A DNA stretch of 64,000 nucleotides from Escherichia coli (lineage in GTDB: Bacteria > Pseudomonadota > Gammaproteobacteria > Enterobacterales > Enterobacteriaceae): assembly GCF_030384885.1 (NCBI RefSeq), contig NZ_CP128613.1, one strand, 5' to 3'. The notes under the pieces are model-generated. The model did no database searches. It was not told where the DNA came from and was given only the letters and a program-made list of their open reading frames with translations. The position numbers and the translations under genes are program-made. This document shows, piece after piece, positions 2,828 through 64,000 of this stretch. Position 1 is the stretch's first letter. Each line of letters starts with the position of its first letter.

Positions 2828-4543
2828 TTACTCCACTTCCTGCCAGTTTTTCCGCTTACTGGTTTTACCGATCCCCGGATTCATGCTGTTGGTCGGATCG
2901 TTCTCGCGATAGAACTTCTGCAACGTCTCCGGTGCTTTATACAAATGACCGACGTTATGCTCGGCAGGGTATTGCGCGCCGCGCTGCTGTAGCAGTTCCA
3001 GCATCTGTTCTTTCAACGCATGCACATCCACGCCTTTTTTAACGATGTAATCCTGATGGAAGACATAGCACATAAAATGGCCGTAATAGAGCTTGTGCAC
3101 CAGCTGGCAGTCGATCTCCGGCGGTAAATGCTCATACCACTCGGTGTCGTTACGCCGCAGAGCGATATCCAGTGCCAGAATGTCTTCGACTTCATCGGAA
3201 TGCACCGCCTGATAACGAATTGCTGCGCCCGCAGCGGCGAAACGGTGTAAAAACGCTTTGCTGCCTTCTTCCGGCGTACAGACAAAGAAATCGCCCTCGG
3301 CCTGTTTGAAATAATCCACCAGCCACGATTTAGCTTCGCCGACGCCATCGCCCGCCATTTTTAACAGCAGATGATGTTCATATTTATCGCGCCAGCTTTT
3401 CATGCGCGGTGGTAAATGGCTGGGGAACAAGTGACCGAATTTTTGCATCGCACGGTCGGTAAAATGCGGACGGAAGAATTTCACTTTCTCCAGCATCGCA
3501 TCGGTGCGTCCCTTGAGATTAAAGAAGAACGGCATCTTGTCGGTGCCTAACTTATCAATCATCAGGAAGGTGTCTTTGCCGTATTTTTCCGCAATATCGT
3601 AGATATCCCGGTGCATATATTCCCCGGCAACTGGCAGATTTTCGAAATTAGCCAGGATATGGCGGCGGATTTCGGTCAGCACTTCCGGCTGGTTGGTGCC
3701 GATATAAAACACTTGCTGATTTTTTTCTGCTTCGAAGGTATCAAGACGTACCGCAAAGACGGCCAGTTTACCGGCGCAACCGGAGGATTCAAACAGGCGA
3801 TCCGGGTCGGCGTTATAACGTGCTGGTGTGTCGGCTTCAATATCACGAACGCGGTGGACATAGTCATAATCGTGGGCGTGACGACCATCGTGGCGCACAT
3901 CGTCATCTTTGATGCGATCGTCATCCAGCTTGCTAAGGATCTGCTCCGGCGTTTCGCCGAGATCAATCCCCAGATGGTTCACCAGCGTCAGTTTGCCGTC
4001 TTCATTTATACGCGCGAATAACGACATTTCGGTATACGCCGGGCCACGCTGCACCAGCGAGCCGCCGGAGTTGTTACAGATACCGCCGATGACTGATGCG
4101 CCTATACACGATGAGCCAATCACCGAGTGCGGTTCGCGTCCCAGCGGTTTGAGGGCTTTTTCCAGCGAATAAAGCGTGGTGCCCGGATAGGCCAGCACCT
4201 GTTCGCCCTTGCCAAGAACATGTAGTTTGTCGAGACGCAGGGTGCTGATGATCACGATATCGCGATCATAGTCGTTACCGTTTGGCGTCGAGCCTTCGGT
4301 CAGACCTGTATTGGCAGCCTGCATCAGAATAATTTTGTCGGCGGTGACGCAGGCTTTCAGCACCCGCCACAATTCCAGTAGTGAGCCAGGGAAAACGACA
4401 GCCAGCGCGTCGCCCTGACCAGAACGGAAGCCCTTGCGATAGCGGGCCGTTTTTGCGGGATCGGTGAGCAGGTGTGAATGACCGACCAGACGGGCAAGTT
4501 CATTCAAAAAGGCTTTATTATCAGTTGTTGTCATGGAAGACAT
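2828..4543 (-). CDS. dld: FAD-dependent D-lactate dehydrogenase
   Basis: ORF 2828-4576(-); start at 4543 (cat on + strand) gives 571 aa beginning MSSMTTTDNKAFLNELARLVG. Confidence 0.95.
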   Translation of the reverse strand: MSSMTTTDNKAFLNELARLVGHSHLLTDPAKTARYRKGFRSGQGDALAVVFPGSLLELWRVLKACVTADKIILMQAANTGLTEGSTPNGNDYDRDIVIISTLRLDKLHVLGKGEQVLAYPGTTLYSLEKALKPLGREPHSVIGSSCIGASVIGGICNNSGGSLVQRGPAYTEMSLFARINEDGKLTLVNHLGIDLGETPEQILSKLDDDRIKDDDVRHDGRHAHDYDYVHRVRDIEADTPARYNADPDRLFESSGCAGKLAVFAVRLDTFEAEKNQQVFYIGTNQPEVLTEIRRHILANFENLPVAGEYMHRDIYDIAEKYGKDTFLMIDKLGTDKMPFFFNLKGRTDAMLEKVKFFRPHFTDRAMQKFGHLFPSHLPPRMKSWRDKYEHHLLLKMAGDGVGEAKSWLVDYFKQAEGDFFVCTPEEGSKAFLHRFAAAGAAIRYQAVHSDEVEDILALDIALRRNDTEWYEHLPPEIDCQLVHKLYYGHFMCYVFHQDYIVKKGVDVHALKEQMLELLQQRGAQYPAEHNVGHLYKAPETLQKFYRENDPTNSMNPGIGKTSKRKNWQEVE

Positions 4544-4738: not shown

Positions 4739-7036
4739 ATGAAATGGCTATGTTCAGTAGGTATCGCGGTGAGTCTGGCCCTGCAACCAGCACTGGCGGA
4801 TGATTTATTCGGCAACCATCCATTAACGCCTGAAGCGCGGGATGCGTTCGTCACCGAACTGCTTAAGAAAATGACGGTTGATGAGAAAATTGGTCAGCTG
4901 CGCTTAATCAGCGTCGGCCCGGATAACCCGAAAGAGGCGATCCGCGAGATGATCAAAGACGGGCAGGTTGGGGCGATTTTCAACACCGTAACCCGTCAGG
5001 ATATCCGCGCCATGCAGGATCAGGTGATGGAATTAAGCCGCCTGAAAATTCCTCTTTTCTTTGCTTACGACGTGCTGCACGGTCAGCGCACGGTGTTCCC
5101 GATTAGCCTCGGTCTGGCCTCGTCTTTTAACCTCGATGCGGTGAAAACGGTCGGACGTGTCTCTGCTTATGAAGCGGCAGATGATGGCCTGAATATGACC
5201 TGGGCACCGATGGTCGATGTTTCGCGCGATCCGCGCTGGGGACGTGCTTCCGAAGGTTTTGGGGAAGATACGTATCTCACTTCGATTATGGGTAAGACTA
5301 TGGTGGAAGCGATGCAGGGTAAAAGCCCGGCAGATCGCTACTCGGTGATGACCAGCGTCAAACACTTTGCCGCTTACGGCGCGGTAGAAAGTGGTAAAGA
5401 GTACAACACCGTCGATATGAGTCCGCAGCGCCTGTTTAACGACTATATGCCGCCGTACAAAGCGGGGCTGGATGCAGGCAGCGGTGCGGTAATGGTGGCG
5501 CTGAACTCGCTGAATGGCACGCCAGCAACTTCCGACTCCTGGCTGCTGAAAGATGTGCTGCGCGATCAGTGGGGCTTTAAAGGCATTACCGTTTCCGATC
5601 ATGGCGCAATCAAAGAGCTGATTAAACATGGCACGGCGGCAGACCCGGAAGATGCGGTGCGCGTGGCACTGAAATCCGGCATCAACATGAGTATGAGCGA
5701 CGAGTACTACTCGAAGTATCTGCCCGGTTTGATCAAATCCGGCAAAGTGACGATGGCAGAGCTGGACGACGCTGCCCGCCACGTGCTGAACGTCAAATAT
5801 GATATGGGGCTGTTCAACGACCCATACAGCCACCTTGGACCGAAAGAGTCTGACCCGGTTGATACGAATGCTGAAAGCCGCCTGCACCGCAAAGAAGCGC
5901 GTGAAGTGGCGCGCGAAAGCCTGGTATTGCTGAAAAACCGCCTTGAAACGCTGCCGCTGAAAAAATCGGCAACCATTGCGGTGGTAGGGCCACTGGCGGA
6001 CAGCAAACGTGACGTGATGGGCAGCTGGTCCGCAGCCGGTGTTGCCGATCAATCTGTGACCGTACTGACCGGGATTAAAAACGCCGTCGGTGAAAACGGC
6101 AAGGTGCTGTATGCCAAAGGTGCGAACGTTACCAGTGATAAAGGCATTATCGATTTCCTGAATCAGTATGAAGAGGCGGTCAAAGTCGATCCGCGTTCGC
6201 CGCAAGAGATGATTGATGAAGCGGTGCAGACCGCGAAACAATCTGATGTGGTGGTGGCTGTGGTCGGTGAAGCTCAGGGGATGGCGCACGAAGCCTCCAG
6301 CCGTACCGATATCACTATTCCACAAAGCCAACGTGACTTGATTGCAGCGTTGAAAACCACTGGTAAACCGCTGGTGCTGGTGCTGATGAACGGGCGTCCG
6401 CTGGCGCTGGTGAAAGAAGATCAGCAGGCTGATGCGATTCTGGAAACCTGGTTTGCGGGGACTGAAGGCGGTAATGCAATTGCCGATGTATTGTTTGGCG
6501 ATTACAACCCGTCCGGCAAGCTGCCAATGTCCTTCCCGCGTTCTGTCGGGCAGATCCCGGTGTACTACAGCCATCTGAACACCGGGCGGCCGTATAATGC
6601 CGACAAGCCGAACAAATACACTTCGCGTTATTTTGATGAAGCTAACGGGGCGCTTTATCCGTTCGGCTATGGTCTGAGCTACACCACTTTCACCGTCTCT
6701 GATGTGAAACTTTCTGCGCCGACCATGAAGCGTGACGGCAAAGTGACCGCCAGTGTGCAGGTGACGAACACCGGTAAGCGCGAAGGGGCGACGGTAGTGC
6801 AGATGTACTTGCAGGATGTGACGGCTTCCATGAGTCGTCCGGTGAAGCAGCTGAAAGGCTTTGAGAAAATCACCCTGAAACCGGGCGAAACTCAGACCGT
6901 CAGCTTCCCAATTGATATCGAGGCGTTGAAGTTCTGGAATCAACAGATGAAATATGACGCCGAGCCTGGCAAGTTCAATGTCTTTATCGGCACTGATTCC
7001 GCACGCGTTAAGAAAGGCGAGTTTGAGTTGCTGTAA
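4739..7036 (+). CDS. bglX: Periplasmic beta-glucosidase BglX (GH3)
   Basis: ORF 4667-7036; ATG at 4739 gives 765 aa beginning MKWLCSVGIAVSLALQPALA (signal peptide). Confidence 0.95.
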   Translation: MKWLCSVGIAVSLALQPALADDLFGNHPLTPEARDAFVTELLKKMTVDEKIGQLRLISVGPDNPKEAIREMIKDGQVGAIFNTVTRQDIRAMQDQVMELSRLKIPLFFAYDVLHGQRTVFPISLGLASSFNLDAVKTVGRVSAYEAADDGLNMTWAPMVDVSRDPRWGRASEGFGEDTYLTSIMGKTMVEAMQGKSPADRYSVMTSVKHFAAYGAVESGKEYNTVDMSPQRLFNDYMPPYKAGLDAGSGAVMVALNSLNGTPATSDSWLLKDVLRDQWGFKGITVSDHGAIKELIKHGTAADPEDAVRVALKSGINMSMSDEYYSKYLPGLIKSGKVTMAELDDAARHVLNVKYDMGLFNDPYSHLGPKESDPVDTNAESRLHRKEAREVARESLVLLKNRLETLPLKKSATIAVVGPLADSKRDVMGSWSAAGVADQSVTVLTGIKNAVGENGKVLYAKGANVTSDKGIIDFLNQYEEAVKVDPRSPQEMIDEAVQTAKQSDVVVAVVGEAQGMAHEASSRTDITIPQSQRDLIAALKTTGKPLVLVLMNGRPLALVKEDQQADAILETWFAGTEGGNAIADVLFGDYNPSGKLPMSFPRSVGQIPVYYSHLNTGRPYNADKPNKYTSRYFDEANGALYPFGYGLSYTTFTVSDVKLSAPTMKRDGKVTASVQVTNTGKREGATVVQMYLQDVTASMSRPVKQLKGFEKITLKPGETQTVSFPIDIEALKFWNQQMKYDAEPGKFNVFIGTDSARVKKGEFELL

Positions 7037-7184
7037 TGCTTTAGTAAGGGCGCGACGTCTGCGCCCTTTAAGTATTTCTCTGATTCTGCAATTGAATCCC
7101 TCCGCTCAGGCTAACCCCGCCATTATCAACTATGCTTTTCTCTTAATTCGCTGAAAACAACAGTAAAAGAATGAGGAAAGCATC

Positions 7185-8102
7185 ATGCCACTCTCAAAGC
7201 TCTGGGCAGGTTCACTGGTTTTGTTGGCAGCCGTGAGCCTGCCGCTACAGGCGGCTTCTGCCGTTAAAGTCGGTTCAAAAATCGATACCGAAGGCGCGCT
7301 ACTCGGCAACATTATTTTGCAAGTGCTGGAAAGCCACGGCGTACCGACGGTGAATAAAGTCCAGTTGGGAACCACGCCGGTGGTGCGCGGCGCGATCACT
7401 TCTGGCGAGCTGGATATCTATCCGGAATATACCGGTAATGGCGCTTTCTTCTTTAAAGATGAAAATGATGCGGCGTGGAAAAATGCCGGACAAGGCTACG
7501 AGAAAGTCAAAAAGCTCGATGCAGAGCAAAACAAGTTAATCTGGCTAACGCCCGCGCCTGCAAATAACACCTGGACCATCGCCGTGCGTCAGGATGTGGC
7601 AGAGAAAAATAAACTCACTTCGCTTGCCGACCTGAGTCGTTATCTGAAAGAGGGTGGCACCTTCAAACTGGCAGCCTCGGCTGAGTTTATCGAACGCGCC
7701 GATGCCTTACCCGCTTTTGAAAAAGCCTACGACTTTAAACTCGGTCAGGATCAGTTGCTGTCACTGGCCGGTGGCGACACGGCGGTGACAATCAAAGCTG
7801 CTGCCCAGCAAACATCCGGCGTTAATGCGGCGATGGCTTACGGCACCGACGGCCCGGTCGCGGCGCTGGGGCTGCAAACCTTAAGCGATCCGCAAGGCGT
7901 GCAACCTATCTACGCGCCTGCACCAGTGGTGCGTGAATCGGTGTTGAAGGAGTATCCGCAAATGGCACAGTGGCTACAGCCAGTCTTCGCCAGCCTCGAT
8001 GCAAAAACATTGCAGCAACTGAATGCCAGCATTGCTGTGGAAGGACTGGATGCCAAAAAAGTGGCTGCCGACTACCTGAAACAAAAAGGGTGGACGAAGT
8101 AA
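7185..8102 (+). CDS. osmF: Osmoprotectant ABC transporter periplasmic binding protein
   Basis: 305 aa, signal peptide MPLSKLWAGSLVLLAAVSLPLQAASA; first gene of osmF-yehYXW. Confidence 0.9.
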   Translation: MPLSKLWAGSLVLLAAVSLPLQAASAVKVGSKIDTEGALLGNIILQVLESHGVPTVNKVQLGTTPVVRGAITSGELDIYPEYTGNGAFFFKDENDAAWKNAGQGYEKVKKLDAEQNKLIWLTPAPANNTWTIAVRQDVAEKNKLTSLADLSRYLKEGGTFKLAASAEFIERADALPAFEKAYDFKLGQDQLLSLAGGDTAVTIKAAAQQTSGVNAAMAYGTDGPVAALGLQTLSDPQGVQPIYAPAPVVRESVLKEYPQMAQWLQPVFASLDAKTLQQLNASIAVEGLDAKKVAADYLKQKGWTK

Positions 8103-8108
8103 TTTCCC

Positions 8109-9266
8109 GTGACTTATTTCCGTATTAATCCTGTTCTGGCGCTGCTGCTGTTGCTGACGGCAATCGCAGCGGCGCTGCCGTTTATCAGTTACGCGCCTAA
8201 TCGTTTAGTCTCGGGTGAGGGGCGTCATCTCTGGCAGCTGTGGCCGCAAACGATCTGGATGCTGGTGGGCGTTGGTTGCGCCTGGCTGACCGCCTGTTTT
8301 ATTCCCGGTAAAAAAGGCAGCATTTTTGCACTCATTCTGGCGCAATTCGTCTTCATATTGCTGGTGTGGGGCGCGGGAAAGGCGGCGACACAACTGGCGC
8401 AAAATGGCAGTGCGCTGGCGCGTACCAGCCTCGGCAGTGGTTTCTGGCTGGCTGCGGCGCTGGCACTGCTGGCCTGTAGCGATGCCATCCGCCGAATCTC
8501 CACGCATCCGCTGTGGCGCTGGTTGTTGCATATGCAGATTGCCATTATTCCGCTGTGGTTGCTGTATTCCGGCGCGCTTAACGATCTCTCGCTAATGAAA
8601 GAATACGCCAACCGTCAGGATGTGTTTAATGACGCGCTGGCGCAACATCTGACGTTGCTGTTTGGTGCGGTGCTGCCTGCGTTAGTGATTGGTGTGCCGC
8701 TGGGCGTCTGGTGCTACTTTTCCACTGCGCGGCAGGGGGCGATTTTTTCTCTGCTGAATGTCATTCAGACCGTGCCTTCGGTGGCGCTCTTTGGCCTGTT
8801 GATTGCGCCGCTTGCCGCGCTGGTTACGGCCTTTCCGTGGCTGGGAACGCTCGGCGTAGCAGGAACCGGAATGACACCCGCACTGATTGCCCTGGTGCTC
8901 TATGCCTTGCTGCCGCTGGTGCGCGGTGTGGTAGTCGGCTTGAACCAGATCCCGCGCGATGTGCTGGAGAGCGCCAGAGCGATGGGCATGAGCGGGGCGC
9001 AGCGATTCCTGCATGTTCAGTTACCGCTGGCGTTACCGGTATTTCTGCGCAGCCTGCGGGTGGTGATGGTGCAAACCGTCGGCATGGCGGTGATTGCGGC
9101 GTTAATCGGCGCAGGTGGTTTTGGTGCGCTGGTTTTCCAGGGGCTGCTAAGCAGTGCCATTGATTTAGTGTTGCTGGGGGTGATCCCGGTAATCGTACTG
9201 GCGGTGCTGATCGACGCACTGTTCGATCTGGTTATCGCACTGCTGAAGGTGAAAAGTAATGATTGA
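8109..9266 (+). CDS. yehY: Osmoprotectant ABC transporter permease
   Basis: 385 aa, GTG start, multi-TM; overlaps yehX start (9259). Confidence 0.9.
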
Positions 9267-61457: not shown

Positions 61458-61775
61458 ATGAAAAAGACAGCTGCTATATCATTAATTAGTGTTTTTCTTA
61501 TGTCTGGTTGTGCTGTGCATAATGATGAGACAAGTATCGGTAAATTCGGTCTTGCCTATAAAAGTAATATCCAGCGTAAACTCGATAACCAATACTACAC
61601 TGAAGCCGAAGCATCTTTAGCCAGGGGAAGAATATCTGGTGCGGAAAATATAGTGAAAAATGATGCAGCTAATTTCTGTGTTACTCAGGGCAAAAAAATG
61701 CAGATAGTTAACCTGAAGACTGAAGGGGCAGGATTACATGGCGTCGCGCGTCTGACATTCAAATGTGGAGAGTGA
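61458..61775 (+). CDS. yegR: Small lipoprotein YegR
   Basis: ATG at 61458 after SD; 105 aa beginning MKKTAAISLISVFLMSGCAV (lipobox). Confidence 0.8.
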   Translation: MKKTAAISLISVFLMSGCAVHNDETSIGKFGLAYKSNIQRKLDNQYYTEAEASLARGRISGAENIVKNDAANFCVTQGKKMQIVNLKTEGAGLHGVARLTFKCGE

Positions 61776-61945
61776 GAATATTTTTTTGTAAGCGTCAAAC
61801 ATGCGCGTTCTGGTTGTGCGTAGCCGGAGCCTGTACGAGCACGATGCCGTTAAGTGAAAGGCATCGTGCTATGAAGGGGGATTCTATCGATGTGGTCAAT
61901 GGAAGACGGTCACCTGGGATCAATCCGTCTCTATGGTTTATGCAT

Positions 61946-62032
61946 AAAAAATAAGCCCGTGTAAGGGAGATTACACAGGCTAAGGAGGTGGTTCCTGGTA
62001 CAGCTAGCATTTTATGGGTTATGTTTTTCAGC
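61946..62032 (-). ncRNA. cyaR: CyaR (RyeE) Hfq-dependent sRNA
   Basis: Minus strand reads GCTGAAAAACATAACCCATAAAATGCTAGCTGTACCAGGAACCACCTCCTTAGCCTGTGTAATCTCCCTTACACGGGCTTATTTTTT, matching CyaR including its terminator, as recalled. Confidence 0.9.
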
Positions 62033-62116
62033 GAAACGGATGATAACCTTAATAAATGCAGCTGTATGTGATCGGTTTCTAAGAATTTTCCATCCGGGAA
62101 AAATAATCGAAATTAA

Positions 62117-63478
62117 TCACTTACCGTGGGGGTTACGCGTGGTTTCCCCGGAGAAATTACGCATCAGCAGCGCGTAATTTAGCTCAAGATCCTGCGGGAC
62201 CGGGATCCACACAGTATAACCATCGCCCGGTGCGACCGGCATTGCTTCGCCTTTGGCGTTTTCCATATGCTCAAGGGTAAAGTTAATGTTCCCTTGCGGC
62301 GTCATCAGCTCAAGGCTGTCGCCAACGGAGAATTTATTTTTCACCGCTACCGCCGCGAGGTCGCCCTTGCGCTCACCGGTAAACTCACCAACAAACTGCT
62401 GGCGGTCAGAAACTGAATAACCGTATTCGTAGTTCTGATAATCGTCGTGAGTATGACGACGCAGGAAACCTTCGGTATAGCCACGATGCGCCAGACCTTC
62501 CAGAGTTTCCAGCAGGCTGGTATCGAATGGTTTTCCCGCAGCTGCGTCATCGATAGCTTTACGGTAAACCTGCGCGGTGCGTGCGCAATAGTAGAAAGAT
62601 TTTGTACGACCTTCGATTTTCAGCGAATGCACGCCCATTTTGGTCAGGCGTTCTACGTGGGCAATGGCGCGCAAATCTTTTGAGTTCATGATGTAAGTGC
62701 CGTGCTCATCTTCAAACGCGGTCATATACTCGCCCGGACGCTGGGCTTCTTCGATCATAAACACTTTGTCGGTTGGCGCGCCGATACCCAGCGTCGGCTC
62801 AACATTTTGCACCGGAATTGGCTCGTACTTGTGTACGATGTTGCCAACGTCATCTTCTTTACCTTCCTGGACGTTGTACTCCCAGCGGCAGGCGTTGGTG
62901 CAGGTGCCCTGGTTCGGATCGCGCTTGTTGATATAACCAGAGAGCAGGCAGCGACCAGAGTAGGCCATGCACAGCGCGCCGTGAACGAAGATTTCGAGTT
63001 CCATATCCGGCACCTGATTGCGGATCTCTTCAATCTCTTCCAGCGACAGTTCGCGAGAGAGGATCACGCGGGTCAGGCCCATTTGCTGCCAGAATTTCAC
63101 CGTCGCCCAGTTCACTGCGTTAGCCTGTACCGAGAGATGGATCGGCATTTCAGGGAAGTGCTCACGCACCAGCATAATCAGCCCTGGATCGGACATAATC
63201 AGCGCATCCGGCCCCATTTCCACCACCGGTTTCAGGTCACGGATAAAGGTTTTCAACTTAGCGTTGTGCGGTGCAATGTTGACCACGACATAAAACTTTT
63301 TCCCCAGCGCGTGGGCTTCATTAATGCCGAGCTGAAGATTTTCGTGGTTGAATTCGTTGTTGCGCACACGCAGGGAGTAACGCGGCTGGCCCGCATAAAC
63401 AGCATCTGCGCCATAAGCGAAAGCGTAACGCATATTTTTCAGCGTTCCCGCCGGGGAAAGGAGTTCCGGTTTAAACAT
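62117..63478 (-). CDS. yegQ: Peptidase U32-family protein YegQ (TrhP, tRNA U34 hydroxylation)
   Basis: 453 aa beginning MFKPELLSPAGTLKNMRYAFAYGADAVYAGQPRYSLRVRNNEF; U32 Cys-rich region. Confidence 0.93.
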   Translation of the reverse strand: MFKPELLSPAGTLKNMRYAFAYGADAVYAGQPRYSLRVRNNEFNHENLQLGINEAHALGKKFYVVVNIAPHNAKLKTFIRDLKPVVEMGPDALIMSDPGLIMLVREHFPEMPIHLSVQANAVNWATVKFWQQMGLTRVILSRELSLEEIEEIRNQVPDMELEIFVHGALCMAYSGRCLLSGYINKRDPNQGTCTNACRWEYNVQEGKEDDVGNIVHKYEPIPVQNVEPTLGIGAPTDKVFMIEEAQRPGEYMTAFEDEHGTYIMNSKDLRAIAHVERLTKMGVHSLKIEGRTKSFYYCARTAQVYRKAIDDAAAGKPFDTSLLETLEGLAHRGYTEGFLRRHTHDDYQNYEYGYSVSDRQQFVGEFTGERKGDLAAVAVKNKFSVGDSLELMTPQGNINFTLEHMENAKGEAMPVAPGDGYTVWIPVPQDLELNYALLMRNFSGETTRNPHGK

Positions 63479-63681
63479 AATTCTCTCGTTCTGATGACAG
63501 GTCAGATCCGCTTCACCTGATGAAGCGGTTGGGGGAGTGCCCCCACTTTAAGGGCGGGCATTGTAGCGCAATCGGTGGGGTTGACTCCAGTGACAATGTT
63601 AAGGGAAAGACTGCGCATTTATTTCGTTTTGACTCCGATAGTCGTCAGGTTCAATTGTTATCAGTTGACCTTAATTTGGTG

Positions 63682-63951
63682 TTAAAGAAAGGGAATATAA
63701 CCCCATAACTTGTTGTGAAGTTCCGGATTGCAGGTAAAAAGCGCCTGAAGTTGCTGACGCTGAGGAGCATTTGGTTGAATGCCCGAAAGATTGAAATTGC
63801 GTTGCCATATCGCGAGCTGTTTACCTGCAAATTCTTCAGTTAGCTTGTGTTGCGATTGCAGAAGAAGAATTAAACAGGCCCATTTGTTCAAGTTATGATA
63901 CAGCCGACAATATGCGCAAGCATGTTTAACTGACGGTGCGTTTTCCAGCAA
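63682..63951 (-). CDS. Hypothetical 89-aa ORF of doubtful coding status
   Basis: Only an open frame (MLENAPSVKHACAYCRLYHNLNKWACL...); no recognisable family and no clear SD checked. Confidence 0.15.
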   Translation of the reverse strand: MLENAPSVKHACAYCRLYHNLNKWACLILLLQSQHKLTEEFAGKQLAIWQRNFNLSGIQPNAPQRQQLQALFTCNPELHNKLWGYIPFL

Positions 63952-64000
63952 CTTACGTATTTCCTCGAACGTAAGCGGAACTCGACACCATACACAGATG

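What the first reader, a model, noticed from the sequence alone, without database searches (positions are those of the whole stretch)
63479..64000. Unassigned ~520-bp segment upstream of yegQ with stem-loops and a Cys-containing 89-codon ORF
I expected the next minus-strand gene (yegP, DUF1508) close to yegQ but could not recognise it here. The region holds two GC-rich hairpins at 63509-63550 (ccgcttcacctgatgaagcgg and gggggagtgcccccac) and an ORF of unclear validity at 63682-63951. It could be a 5' leader or attenuator of yegQ, a strain-specific insertion, or an unannotated small gene or sRNA.
Basis: inference. Interest (0 to 1): 0.3.

Follow-up and report, generated by a model that had tools for sequence, protein, structure and literature searches.

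The report
Strain-variable HEAT-repeat gene beside yegQ
The "unassigned" 520 bases are the ordinary conserved upstream region of yegQ followed by the tail end of an already annotated, strain-variable gene for a 466-residue HEAT-repeat protein of unknown function. That gene sits between yegP and yegQ in about 2% of E. coli genomes.

Summary

- **63479-63569:** the yegQ/trhP upstream region. It is 99% identical to K-12, and a stretch of the query (inferred to be this one) matches in 5423 of 5426 complete E. coli genomes. It holds a -10-like TACAAT and both hairpins. There is no U-tract, no Rfam hit, and only one compensatory pair.
- **From 63570:** a 1.6-kb strain-specific segment found in 96 of 5426 genomes and mostly complete (at least 80% aligned) in 39.
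- **63605-63655:** a 17-codon relic of a ParD antitoxin gene.
- **63682 to the window end:** the last 105 codons of a 466-aa HEAT-repeat protein (RefSeq WP_000911984.1). The "89-codon ORF" is only its C-terminus. yegP is intact 1.2 kb beyond the window.

The protein is a confident all-alpha solenoid (pLDDT 92) under purifying selection (dN/dS 0.1-0.3). It belongs to a widespread, unnamed family of basic proteins of about 450 aa. Orthologues occupy the same baeR-yegQ slot in other Enterobacteriaceae. In a sister clade, three relatives lie in rtcR-rtcB(-rlaP) RNA-repair operons.

Its function is untested; an RNA-repair or tRNA-linked binding role is a lead only. For the locus itself this is ordinary, already annotated accessory DNA.

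The parts
62117..63478 (-). yegQ/trhP CDS (453 aa, tRNA 5-hydroxyuridine modification protein). This is the context gene downstream of the finding.
   Evidence: ORF; RefSeq annotation of the near-identical genome; K-12 trhP.
63479..63569 (-). Conserved 91-bp yegQ-proximal region: probable promoter -10 element plus 5' leader. It is shared by K-12 and by island-bearing strains.
   Evidence: 99% identical to K-12 up to 63569, then divergence. A stretch of the query matches in 5423/5426 genomes; that this is the 91-bp region is inferred from the K-12 alignment. Near-invariant in other genera.
63560..63565 (-). -10-like hexamer TACAAT, invariant in all nine distinct leaders compared. K-12, L012 and L025 have TTTAC(C/T) exactly 17 bp upstream. 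In the window the nearest -35-like hexamer (TTGTCA) is 23 bp away.
   Evidence: Read from the sequences. The consensus scanner did not call it. Promoter function is inferred, not shown.
63531..63544 (-). Hairpin 1 (GGGGG-CACU-CCCCC in the yegQ sense). The stem is partly degenerate in other genera.
   Evidence: 86% of cells paired and no compensatory change.
63508..63528 (-). Hairpin 2 (9-bp stem, CCGCUUCAU-CAG-GUGAAGCGG). It is not followed by a U-tract.
   Evidence: Present in both the MFE and centroid folds. 97.5% of cells paired, with one compensatory pair (UA to CG in 2 of 9 sequences). No terminator-like site.
63490..63506 (-). Hairpin 3 (UCUGA-7 nt-UCAGA), just upstream of the GAGAG Shine-Dalgarno-like stretch. 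It is sequence-invariant.
   Evidence: It never varies, so it gives no evidence for or against a structure.
63570..63681 (.). 112-bp spacer on the island side, not alignable with K-12 by BLAST. Its first ~27 bp (63570-63596) resemble the 21 bp that K-12 has at this point, with indels.
63605..63655 (-). Relic of a ParD-family (ribbon-helix-helix) antitoxin gene. 17 codons align to residues 21-37 of the intact 83-aa ParD found at this position in locus L007. ST540-type E. coli keep a 53-aa fragment, and the window has lost a further 117 bp.
   Evidence: tblastn 47% over 17 aa, E = 0.002 in a tiny search space. ST540 annotation and alignment. L007 ParD matches Pfam PF03693 at 4.8e-18.
63682..64000 (-). 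3' end (stop codon plus the last 105 codons) of the 1401-nt gene for a 466-aa HEAT-repeat protein (RefSeq WP_000911984.1). The CDS continues to window-equivalent 65082.
   Evidence: Pfam HEAT_2 2.5e-9 and HEAT 3.6e-7, both above the curated cut-offs. AF2 pLDDT 92.3.

Best explanation
**What the segment is.** It is the junction between core and accessory DNA.
- The first 91 bp upstream of yegQ (63479-63569) are the conserved yegQ/trhP promoter-proximal region and 5' leader, including the hairpins.
- From 63570 onward the window enters a 1.6-kb accessory segment lying between the yegP terminator and the yegQ -10 element.
- That segment carries one intact gene for a 466-aa cytoplasmic HEAT-repeat alpha-solenoid, of which the window holds only the last 105 codons.
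- Downstream of that gene lies the eroded remnant of a solo parD antitoxin gene.

**History of the slot.**
- The baeR-yegQ slot is an old, recombining, polymorphic site in Enterobacteriaceae, with at least four arrangements:
  - yegP alone (K-12 type);
  - yegP + HEAT + parD relic, or a 201-aa ORF in place of the relic (minority E. coli);
  - a 238-aa signal-peptide protein + HEAT, followed by parD (L007) or by a homologue of the 201-aa ORF (L008);
  - HEAT alone (L025).
- The gene is not a mobile-element cargo. It moves by homologous recombination of its flanks and is being lost in many carriers.

**How the protein works (inferred, not shown).**
- It has no catalytic domain.
- It is a basic solenoid of about 14 helical hairpins with a family-specific conserved surface: HxNGxxR, NDW, RxDH, LNKWD and a C-terminal W...P...Q.
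- It most likely acts by binding a partner.
- Relatives are co-oriented directly behind rtcB or rtcB-rlaP under RtcR control, and this clade sits next to the tRNA-modification gene yegQ.
- The most likely partner is therefore an RNA (tRNA) substrate or a protein of the RNA damage/repair response.

**Confidence.** About 0.9 for what the segment is, and about 0.25 for the RNA-repair-linked function. The score given (0.85) refers to the identity and anatomy of the segment.
For: **Identity.**
- The window differs from E. coli 2013C-4282 at 1 of 11,522 bases compared.
- RefSeq annotates yegQ, the HEAT-repeat protein and yegP there in that order.

**Junctions.**
- K-12 matches up to window 63569, and again from the yegP terminator hairpin.

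**Distribution.**
- The segment is in 96/5426 genomes, always about one copy, and on the chromosome in all but one record.
- It is mostly complete (at least 80% of the query aligned) in 39.
- Elsewhere it is truncated, IS1-hit or split.

**A real gene.**
- dN/dS is 0.11-0.30 over deep comparisons.
- There is an AAGGAA Shine-Dalgarno sequence 6 nt before the ATG.
- The AF2 model has pLDDT 92.3 and pTM 0.83.
- HEAT Pfam hits are above cut-off.

**Family.**
- 1685 representatives at E<=1e-3 and 462 at E<=1e-10.
- The matches are collinear over the full length.
- Invariant motifs are listed.
- pI ranges from 7.7 to 10.

**Synteny.**
- HEAT orthologues at 38-100% aa identity lie between baeR and yegQ in L007, L008, L011, L012, L025 and L026.

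**Horizontal transfer.**
- E. coli versus L008: HEAT dS is 0.28 and yegQ dS is 0.60.
- Nucleotide identity is 91% for the HEAT gene against 80-87% for the flanks.

**RNA-repair link.**
- rtcR / rtcB-HEAT in Pectobacterium zantedeschiae, with a 17-bp gap.
- rtcR / rtcB-rlaP-HEAT in L018 and in L030-32.
- An Rv2179c-like exoribonuclease neighbour in L037 (weak Pfam hit).
- RlaP is reported to act on damaged RNA and tRNA (PMC12776372).
Against: **Against the functional inference.**
- Only 3 of about 12 independent contexts are rtc operons.
- All three lie in one Enterobacterales clade, so they may reflect one or two ancestral events.
- Other relatives sit beside unrelated genes: hutWX, Mrr-like, DUF4132, SLFN-like helicase.
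- Variable DNA (parD, or a 201-aa ORF on the opposite strand) separates the HEAT gene from yegQ, so their linkage may be merely positional.
- No RNA-binding domain is detected, and a basic pI is weak evidence.

**Against the leader interpretation.**
- The promoter is not experimentally mapped here.
- Covariation support is one pair, and shuffle controls are not exceeded.

**Against a settled history.**
- The direction of the event in E. coli (ancestral retention or re-acquisition) is not resolved.
Confidence: 0.85

Rival explanations
1. The whole 520 bp is a long regulatory 5' leader or attenuator of yegQ. In this reading the hairpins act as a terminator/antiterminator switch and the ORF is irrelevant.
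For: - The hairpins lie 30-70 nt upstream of the yegQ ATG and are conserved across genera.
- No terminator-like site separates the HEAT gene from yegQ, so read-through into yegQ is possible.
Against: - Only 91 bp are conserved; the rest is absent from 98% of E. coli genomes.
- No hairpin is followed by a U-tract, and the scanner found no terminator-like site.
- There is no Rfam match.
- Folding energy is not exceptional (z = -1.2).
- An invariant TACAAT sits upstream of the hairpins. This places them in a short leader rather than a 500-nt one.
Confidence: 0.1
2. The 89-codon Cys-containing ORF at 63682-63951 is an independent, unannotated small protein gene, or the region encodes an sRNA.
For: - ORF listing reports it as a stand-alone TTG-initiated ORF.
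Against: - The frame is open to the end of the window.
- It continues for 466 codons in the near-identical genome.
- Homologues align over the full length.
- No Cys column is invariant or nearly invariant.
- Rfam finds nothing here.
Confidence: 0.02
3. The HEAT protein and ParD form a toxin-antitoxin-like pair. The HEAT protein would be a novel toxin or effector kept in check by the ParD-family antitoxin encoded just downstream.
For: - An intact 83-aa ParD (PF03693, 4.8e-18) lies 123 bp downstream of the HEAT gene in L007, with no ParE partner.
- The fast divergence of the HEAT protein resembles that of conflict genes.
Against: - In E. coli, parD is reduced to a 53-aa fragment or a 17-codon relic while the HEAT gene stays intact and under purifying selection. 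This would be lethal or strongly counter-selected if HEAT were a ParD-dependent toxin.
- L025 and L008 have the HEAT gene without parD.
- There is no toxin domain and no PADLOC toxin-antitoxin hit.
- The genes are separated by more than 100 bp rather than overlapping.
Confidence: 0.05
4. The segment is a mobile-element insertion or a dedicated anti-phage defence gene dropped into a defence hotspot.
For: - Presence is patchy (1.8% of genomes).
- Alternative cassettes occupy the same slot.
- IS1 copies lie nearby in some strains.
- There are signs of inter-genus transfer.
- There is a weak PADLOC hit to HEAT-ARM_XIII at 1e-7.
Against: - No integrase or transposase belongs to the segment, and no terminal direct or inverted repeats or target duplication are seen.
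- There are no phage homologues and only a few megaplasmid ones.
- The PADLOC hit covers about 190 residues of a 1972-position profile, which is repeat-level similarity only.
- PHROGs finds nothing.
- The gene stands alone with no enzymatic effector.
Confidence: 0.08

Closest known systems
PBS-lyase-type bacterial HEAT-repeat proteins (Pfam HEAT_2 PF13646), for example E. coli YibA (PDB 1oyz) and the consensus-designed alphaRep proteins
   Same: - The repeat type and the all-alpha solenoid fold are the same.
   Different: - Those proteins are about 170-300 aa and match only part of the solenoid.
- They lack the family-specific motifs HxNGxxR, NDW, RxDH and LNKWD, and the C-terminal W...P...Q cap that lies in the window.
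- None gives a functional assignment.
Ro/Rsr, the HEAT-repeat ring protein of rtcR-rsr-rtcB-rtcA operons
   Same: - Both are HEAT-repeat proteins encoded in RtcR-controlled RtcB operons of Enterobacterales (PMC3854526).
- This offers a working analogy: a non-enzymatic RNA-binding scaffold accompanying an RNA ligase.
   Different: - There is no TROVE or vWA Pfam hit.
- The gene lies downstream of rtcB or rlaP, whereas the cited operon places ro upstream of rtcB.
- The window's own copy is not in an rtc operon at all.
Canonical K-12 yegP-yegQ (trhP) intergenic region
   Same: - The 91 bp next to yegQ, with TACAAT and all three hairpins, and the yegP terminator hairpin are shared at 97-99% identity.
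   Different: - K-12 has 146 bp between the two genes; the window's strain has 1726 bp.
- K-12 has a TTTACC -35-like hexamer 17 bp from TACAAT. In the window the corresponding hexamer is 23 bp away.
- The yegP hairpin is followed by TTTATTTTCT in the island strain but by GCTTTACC in K-12.
ParD/ParE type II toxin-antitoxin systems
   Same: - The DNA between the HEAT gene and yegQ derives from a ParD-family ribbon-helix-helix antitoxin gene.
   Different: - No ParE is present in any of the loci inspected.
- In the window only 17 degenerate codons remain, so no functional toxin-antitoxin module is present.

Membership tests
HEAT-repeat proteins (Pfam HEAT_2 PF13646 / HEAT PF02985) | Sequence match above the curated gathering score | tested here: met
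   HEAT_2 scores 37.7 bits (cut-off 27.7, E 2.5e-9). HEAT scores 30.3 bits (cut-off 23.5). All 32 aligned relatives match HEAT_2.
HEAT-repeat proteins (Pfam HEAT_2 PF13646 / HEAT PF02985) | Tandem helix-turn-helix hairpins forming an alpha-solenoid | tested here: met
   No ORF in this stretch resembles YegP. yegP is annotated 1.2 kb beyond the window end in the near-identical genome.
Intrinsic terminator / transcription attenuator | GC-rich hairpin immediately followed by a U-tract on the transcribed strand | tested here: not met
   No terminator-like sites were found in 63300-64000 on either strand. The hairpins are followed by AACCGC and AUCUGA.
Any curated RNA family (Rfam 15) | Covariance-model match at E<=1 | tested here: not met
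   The only match in 61700-64000 is CyaR at 61949-62034.
ParD antitoxin (PF03693) | Intact ribbon-helix-helix ORF of about 80 aa matching the family model | tested here: not met
   The window holds only 17 alignable codons. The ST540 fragment scores 20.9 bits, just under the cut-off of 21. The L007 protein meets it at 65.8 bits.
Ro60/Rsr (TROVE + vWA) | TROVE domain ring and a C-terminal vWA domain | tested here: not met
AlkD-like HEAT-like-repeat DNA glycosylases (PF08713 DNA_alkylation) | Match above the gathering score | tested here: not met
   16.1 bits against a cut-off of 21, E 0.0092, covering residues 83-192 only.
Known anti-phage defence systems (PADLOC-DB v2) | Full-length match to a system component, plus the partner genes of that system | tested here: not met
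   The only hits are a partial repeat-level match to HEAT-ARM_XIII (27.5 bits, profile positions 582-769 of 1972) and a noise hit to BrxF. No partner genes are present in the locus.
Mobile element insertion (IS, transposon or integrative island) | Transposase or integrase, terminal repeats, target-site duplication | tested here: not met
   The segment has a single CDS. No repeat pair spans its two ends. No duplication is seen at the junctions.
Rtc RNA-repair operon component | Co-oriented gene within an rtcR-controlled rtcB operon | tested here: inconclusive
   This is met for three relatives at 28-33% identity (L014, L018, L030). It is not met for the window's gene, which lies between yegP and yegQ. 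A biochemical role cannot be tested with these tools.

The most novel reading that the evidence does not exclude
The 466-aa protein may belong to a previously unrecognised family of fast-evolving, basic HEAT-solenoid accessory factors of bacterial RNA damage and repair.

- In one Enterobacterales clade the gene takes the position after rtcB or rtcB-rlaP in RtcR-controlled operons.
- In the sister clade it is fixed next to the tRNA U34 hydroxylation gene yegQ/trhP.
- The protein would bind damaged tRNA, or neutralise a tRNA-targeting ribotoxin in the manner of an immunity protein.
- Either role would explain why it diverges far faster than its neighbours: HEAT proteins are 37-48% identical where the adjacent RtcB proteins are 84-88% identical.
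Probability: 0.2. Interest if true: 0.55.

Novelty: already known. Interest (0 to 1): 0.2.

Why it matters
For the window itself, this closes an apparent gap. The segment is annotated accessory DNA plus the normal yegQ upstream region. It is not a new RNA element or a small gene.

Three smaller points follow.

- **A polymorphic slot.** The baeR-yegQ slot is an old, recombining polymorphic site in Enterobacteriaceae. The accessory segment abuts the yegQ -10 element and changes the -35 spacing. It also provides no terminator before yegQ. Carriers may therefore express the tRNA-modification gene differently.
- **A family worth testing.** The gene belongs to a large uncharacterised HEAT-repeat family. 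Some members sit in RtcB/RlaP RNA-repair operons, an association I did not find in the literature searched. If real, it would add a non-enzymatic component to bacterial RNA repair.
- **A caution for ORF readers.** An ORF that seems to start near a window edge may be the tail of a long gene.

Tried and rejected
**Checks on the hairpin region**
- Rfam scan at E<=1 returned nothing for the hairpins.
- Promoter and terminator consensus scans found nothing on the yegQ strand.
- Covariation test of the three hairpins: 95% of cells are paired, against 39-58% in the slid controls. Only one compensatory pair was found and the shuffle controls were not exceeded. Structure-level selection is therefore not demonstrated.

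**Attempts to assign the protein**
- PHROGs gave nothing. NCBIfam gave noise only. PADLOC gave repeat-level similarity only.
- The PDB sequence-profile search returned alphaRep and YibA only.

**Searches for more relatives and contexts**
- The word-indexed protein searches found only close relatives.
- Peptide-pattern scans yielded just 4 loci in genome contigs and 8 in metagenome contigs. A statistical neighbourhood census was therefore not possible.
- The phage collection held no homologue.

**Literature**
- No paper was found on this intergenic region, or on HEAT proteins other than Ro in rtc operons.
- The Burroughs & Aravind 2016 RNA-repair survey is not held in the library.

**Readings considered and rejected**
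- Toxin-antitoxin pair with ParD.
- Mobile-element cargo.
- Zinc- or Cys-motif protein.
- Ro homologue.
- AlkD-like glycosylase.

Full report
**What is in the sequence**

yegQ/trhP occupies 62117-63478 on the minus strand.

The reported ORF has its stop at 63682-63684. Its frame does not close upstream: translating 63682-63999 on the minus strand gives 105 sense codons running to the window edge. The "89-codon ORF" is therefore the tail of something longer.

**Identity by comparison**

The 522-bp segment is 100% identical to E. coli 2013C-4282. The preceding 11 kb differ from that genome at one base. RefSeq annotates the region there, in window orientation, as:
- yegQ;
- a 466-aa "HEAT repeat domain-containing protein" (WP_000911984.1);
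- yegP;
- baeR.

The HEAT CDS ends at window 63682 and would start at window-equivalent 65082. yegP lies at 65205-65537, outside the window. The C-terminal 105 residues of the annotated protein equal the window translation.

**Boundaries of core and accessory DNA**

- K-12 aligns at 99% from inside yegQ up to window 63569.
- It aligns again at 97% from the yegP terminator hairpin onward.
- In between, K-12 has 21 bp where the window's strain has 1601 bp.
- The last ~27 bp on the island side (63570-63596) resemble K-12's 21 bp with indels, so the true indel is about 1.58 kb.
- No repeat pair spans the two ends. There is no target duplication and no recombinase gene.

**The conserved 91 bp (63479-63569)**

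- A stretch of the query matches in 5423 of 5426 complete E. coli genomes. From the K-12 alignment I infer that it is this 91-bp region.
- The region is nearly invariant in loci from other Enterobacteriaceae whose mdt-bae genes are only about 80% identical to E. coli.
- It begins with an invariant GCGCTACAAT.
- K-12, L012 and L025 carry TTTAC(C/T) exactly 17 bp upstream of TACAAT. This is a reasonable sigma-70 arrangement.
- In the window the corresponding hexamer is 23 bp away.
- The hairpins lie between TACAAT and the ATG, so they probably sit in a leader of about 75 nt. This is an inference, because no TSS data were available.
- They are not terminators: there is no U-tract and no terminator-like site.
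- They match no Rfam family.
- They fold no better than shuffled sequence (z = -1.2).
- Across nine distinct leaders, 95% of cells are paired, against 39-58% in the slid controls.
- Conservation is mostly plain sequence invariance. Only one pair shows a compensatory change.

**The spacer (63570-63681)**

- ST540-type E. coli have an annotated 53-aa ParD-family fragment here.
- The window's strain has lost a further 117 bp.
- It keeps 17 codons (63605-63655, minus strand) that align to residues 21-37 of an intact 83-aa ParD.
- That intact ParD is found at the same position in locus L007 and matches PF03693 at 4.8e-18.
- No ParE is present in any of the loci inspected.
- A third E. coli variant (XJ6.1) has a 201-aa hypothetical ORF on the opposite strand instead.

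**Distribution and decay**

- The 1.6-kb segment occurs in 96 of 5426 genomes, in the same slot.
- At least 80% of the query is aligned in only 39.
- Elsewhere the gene is truncated, split in two, or interrupted next to IS1.
- At least two alleles about 92.5% identical circulate.

**Is it a real gene?**

Yes.
- dN/dS is 0.11-0.30 in deep comparisons. yegQ gives 0.005-0.07 in the same genomes.
- An AAGGAA Shine-Dalgarno sequence precedes the ATG.
- Pfam HEAT_2 and HEAT hits exceed their cut-offs.
- AlphaFold2 with a 32-sequence alignment gives a confident all-alpha solenoid: pLDDT 92.3 and pTM 0.83, with only residues 1-20 disordered.

**The family**

- An exhaustive phmmer scan of 1.84 billion representatives found 1685 proteins at E<=1e-3 and 462 at E<=1e-10.
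- The matches are collinear over almost the full length, to proteins of about 430-550 aa.
- The alignment shows family-specific invariant positions beyond the generic HEAT consensus: H63, N65, G66, R69, N93-D94-W95, R134, H137, W401 within LNKWD, W426, P437 and Q441.
- The last four lie in the part of the protein encoded inside the window.
- Members are basic, with pI 7.7-10, and have no conserved cysteine.
- No library gives anything beyond "HEAT repeat".
- No solved structure belongs to the family.
- There is no phage homologue, and only a few on megaplasmids.

**Synteny and history**

Orthologues lie between baeR and yegQ in several loci:

| Locus | aa identity to the window's protein | Organism, where named |
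|---|---|---|
| L008 | 85% | not named |
| L007 | 59% | not named |
| L025 | 40% | not named |
| L012 / L026 | 38% (L012) | L012: Enterobacteriaceae bacterium UBA3516 |
| L011 | 94% (best segment) | Escherichia sp. MOD1-EC7003 |

The slot has at least four layouts:
- yegP alone;
- yegP + HEAT, with a parD relic or the 201-aa ORF;
- a 238-aa signal-peptide, TPR-like protein + HEAT, followed by parD (L007) or by a homologue of the 201-aa ORF (L008);
- HEAT alone directly after baeR.

Between E. coli and L008, the HEAT gene is more similar than its flanks. dS is 0.28 for HEAT against 0.60 for yegQ, and nucleotide identity is 91% against 80-87%. This points to exchange across lineages by homologous recombination.

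In the island strain the yegP hairpin is followed by a proper T-run (TTTATTTTCT). K-12 lacks this T-run. I cannot say whether E. coli carriers retained or re-acquired the gene.

**Functional lead**

A neighbour-joining tree places the yegQ-slot clade as sister to a second Enterobacterales clade. In that second clade three members are co-oriented inside RtcR-controlled RNA-repair operons:
- rtcR / rtcB-HEAT in Pectobacterium zantedeschiae, with a 17-bp gap;
- rtcR / rtcB-rlaP-HEAT in L018;
- rtcR / rtcB-rlaP-HEAT in L030-L032.

Other relatives have unrelated neighbours: hutWX, an Mrr-like gene, DUF4132, an SLFN-like helicase, and a weak Rv2179c-like exoribonuclease hit.

I therefore rate an RNA-repair or tRNA-linked binding role at about 0.2-0.25. 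The rtc contexts may trace to one or two ancestral events.

**Rivals**

- *Toxin-antitoxin pair with ParD.* This is contradicted by parD decaying while the HEAT gene stays intact and constrained.
- *Mobile-element cargo.* This lacks every hallmark tested.
- *Defence gene.* This rests only on patchy distribution and a repeat-level PADLOC hit.
- *Long yegQ attenuator.* This conflicts with 98% of genomes lacking the DNA.
- *Independent small gene.* This is refuted by the open frame.

**Verdict**

- The segment is already explained by public annotation.
- It is of low interest as a locus.
- A modest lead concerns an uncharacterised HEAT-repeat family and RNA repair.

Noticed in passing
window 61949-62034 (-), and 61776-61948: CyaR sRNA lies downstream of yegQ (Rfam 100.7 bits). 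Only 173 bp separate it from yegR. K-12 has 788 bp there, holding the PR-X cryptic P2 remnant (ogrK, yegZ). This strain therefore lacks that remnant.
   Followed up: partly
window 63566-63600; L003 3557-3590; L025 about 3390-3430: The -35-like hexamer is 17 bp from the conserved TACAAT in K-12, L012, L025 and L026. It is 23 bp away in the window, ST540, XJ6.1, L007 and L008. No terminator-like site lies between the HEAT gene and yegQ. yegQ expression may therefore differ between the two locus types.
   Followed up: partly
L007 7280-7996; L008 7271-7990; L022 149-943; L011 3125-3922: In some Enterobacteriaceae and Escherichia-like contigs, yegP is replaced by a 238-aa protein. It has an N-terminal signal peptide and sub-threshold TPR hits, and it ends 4-10 bp before the HEAT gene. 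This may be a two-gene unit.
   Followed up: partly
L004 1858-2463 (+); L011 5360-5965; L008 9429-9842: An alternative cassette lies between the HEAT gene and yegQ: a 201-aa hypothetical protein with no Pfam hit, convergent with the HEAT gene. It takes the place of the parD relic.
   Followed up: no
L006 (NZ_CP083887.1, 43-kb 'plasmid unnamed3' of E. coli NDM2): A record labelled as a plasmid carries P2-like tail genes and ogrK. It also carries a frameshifted yegQ, the parD fragment, a HEAT-gene remnant, IS1, yegI, yegD and alkA. This is chromosomal DNA from this very region, so the record looks like an excised or misassembled circle or an IS1-mediated rearrangement.
   Followed up: no
yegQ CDS, window 62117-63478 versus L002 and L004: Synonymous divergence of yegQ between E. 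coli strains is 0.12-0.15. By recollection this seems high for an E. coli core gene, which would suggest that alleles are imported by recombination around this slot. No other core gene was measured here for comparison.
   Followed up: no
L010 / L013 (Affinibrenneria salicis) 5038-8347: A HEAT-family homologue sits divergently next to a Schlafen-group-3-like helicase (PF09848) followed by a second peptide deformylase gene. This is an unusual pairing that was not examined further.
   Followed up: no
window 63682-63951: the ORF listing reported this ORF as complete, although its frame runs off the window end. ORFs whose first in-frame start codon lies near a window edge can be the tails of long genes.
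   Followed up: yes
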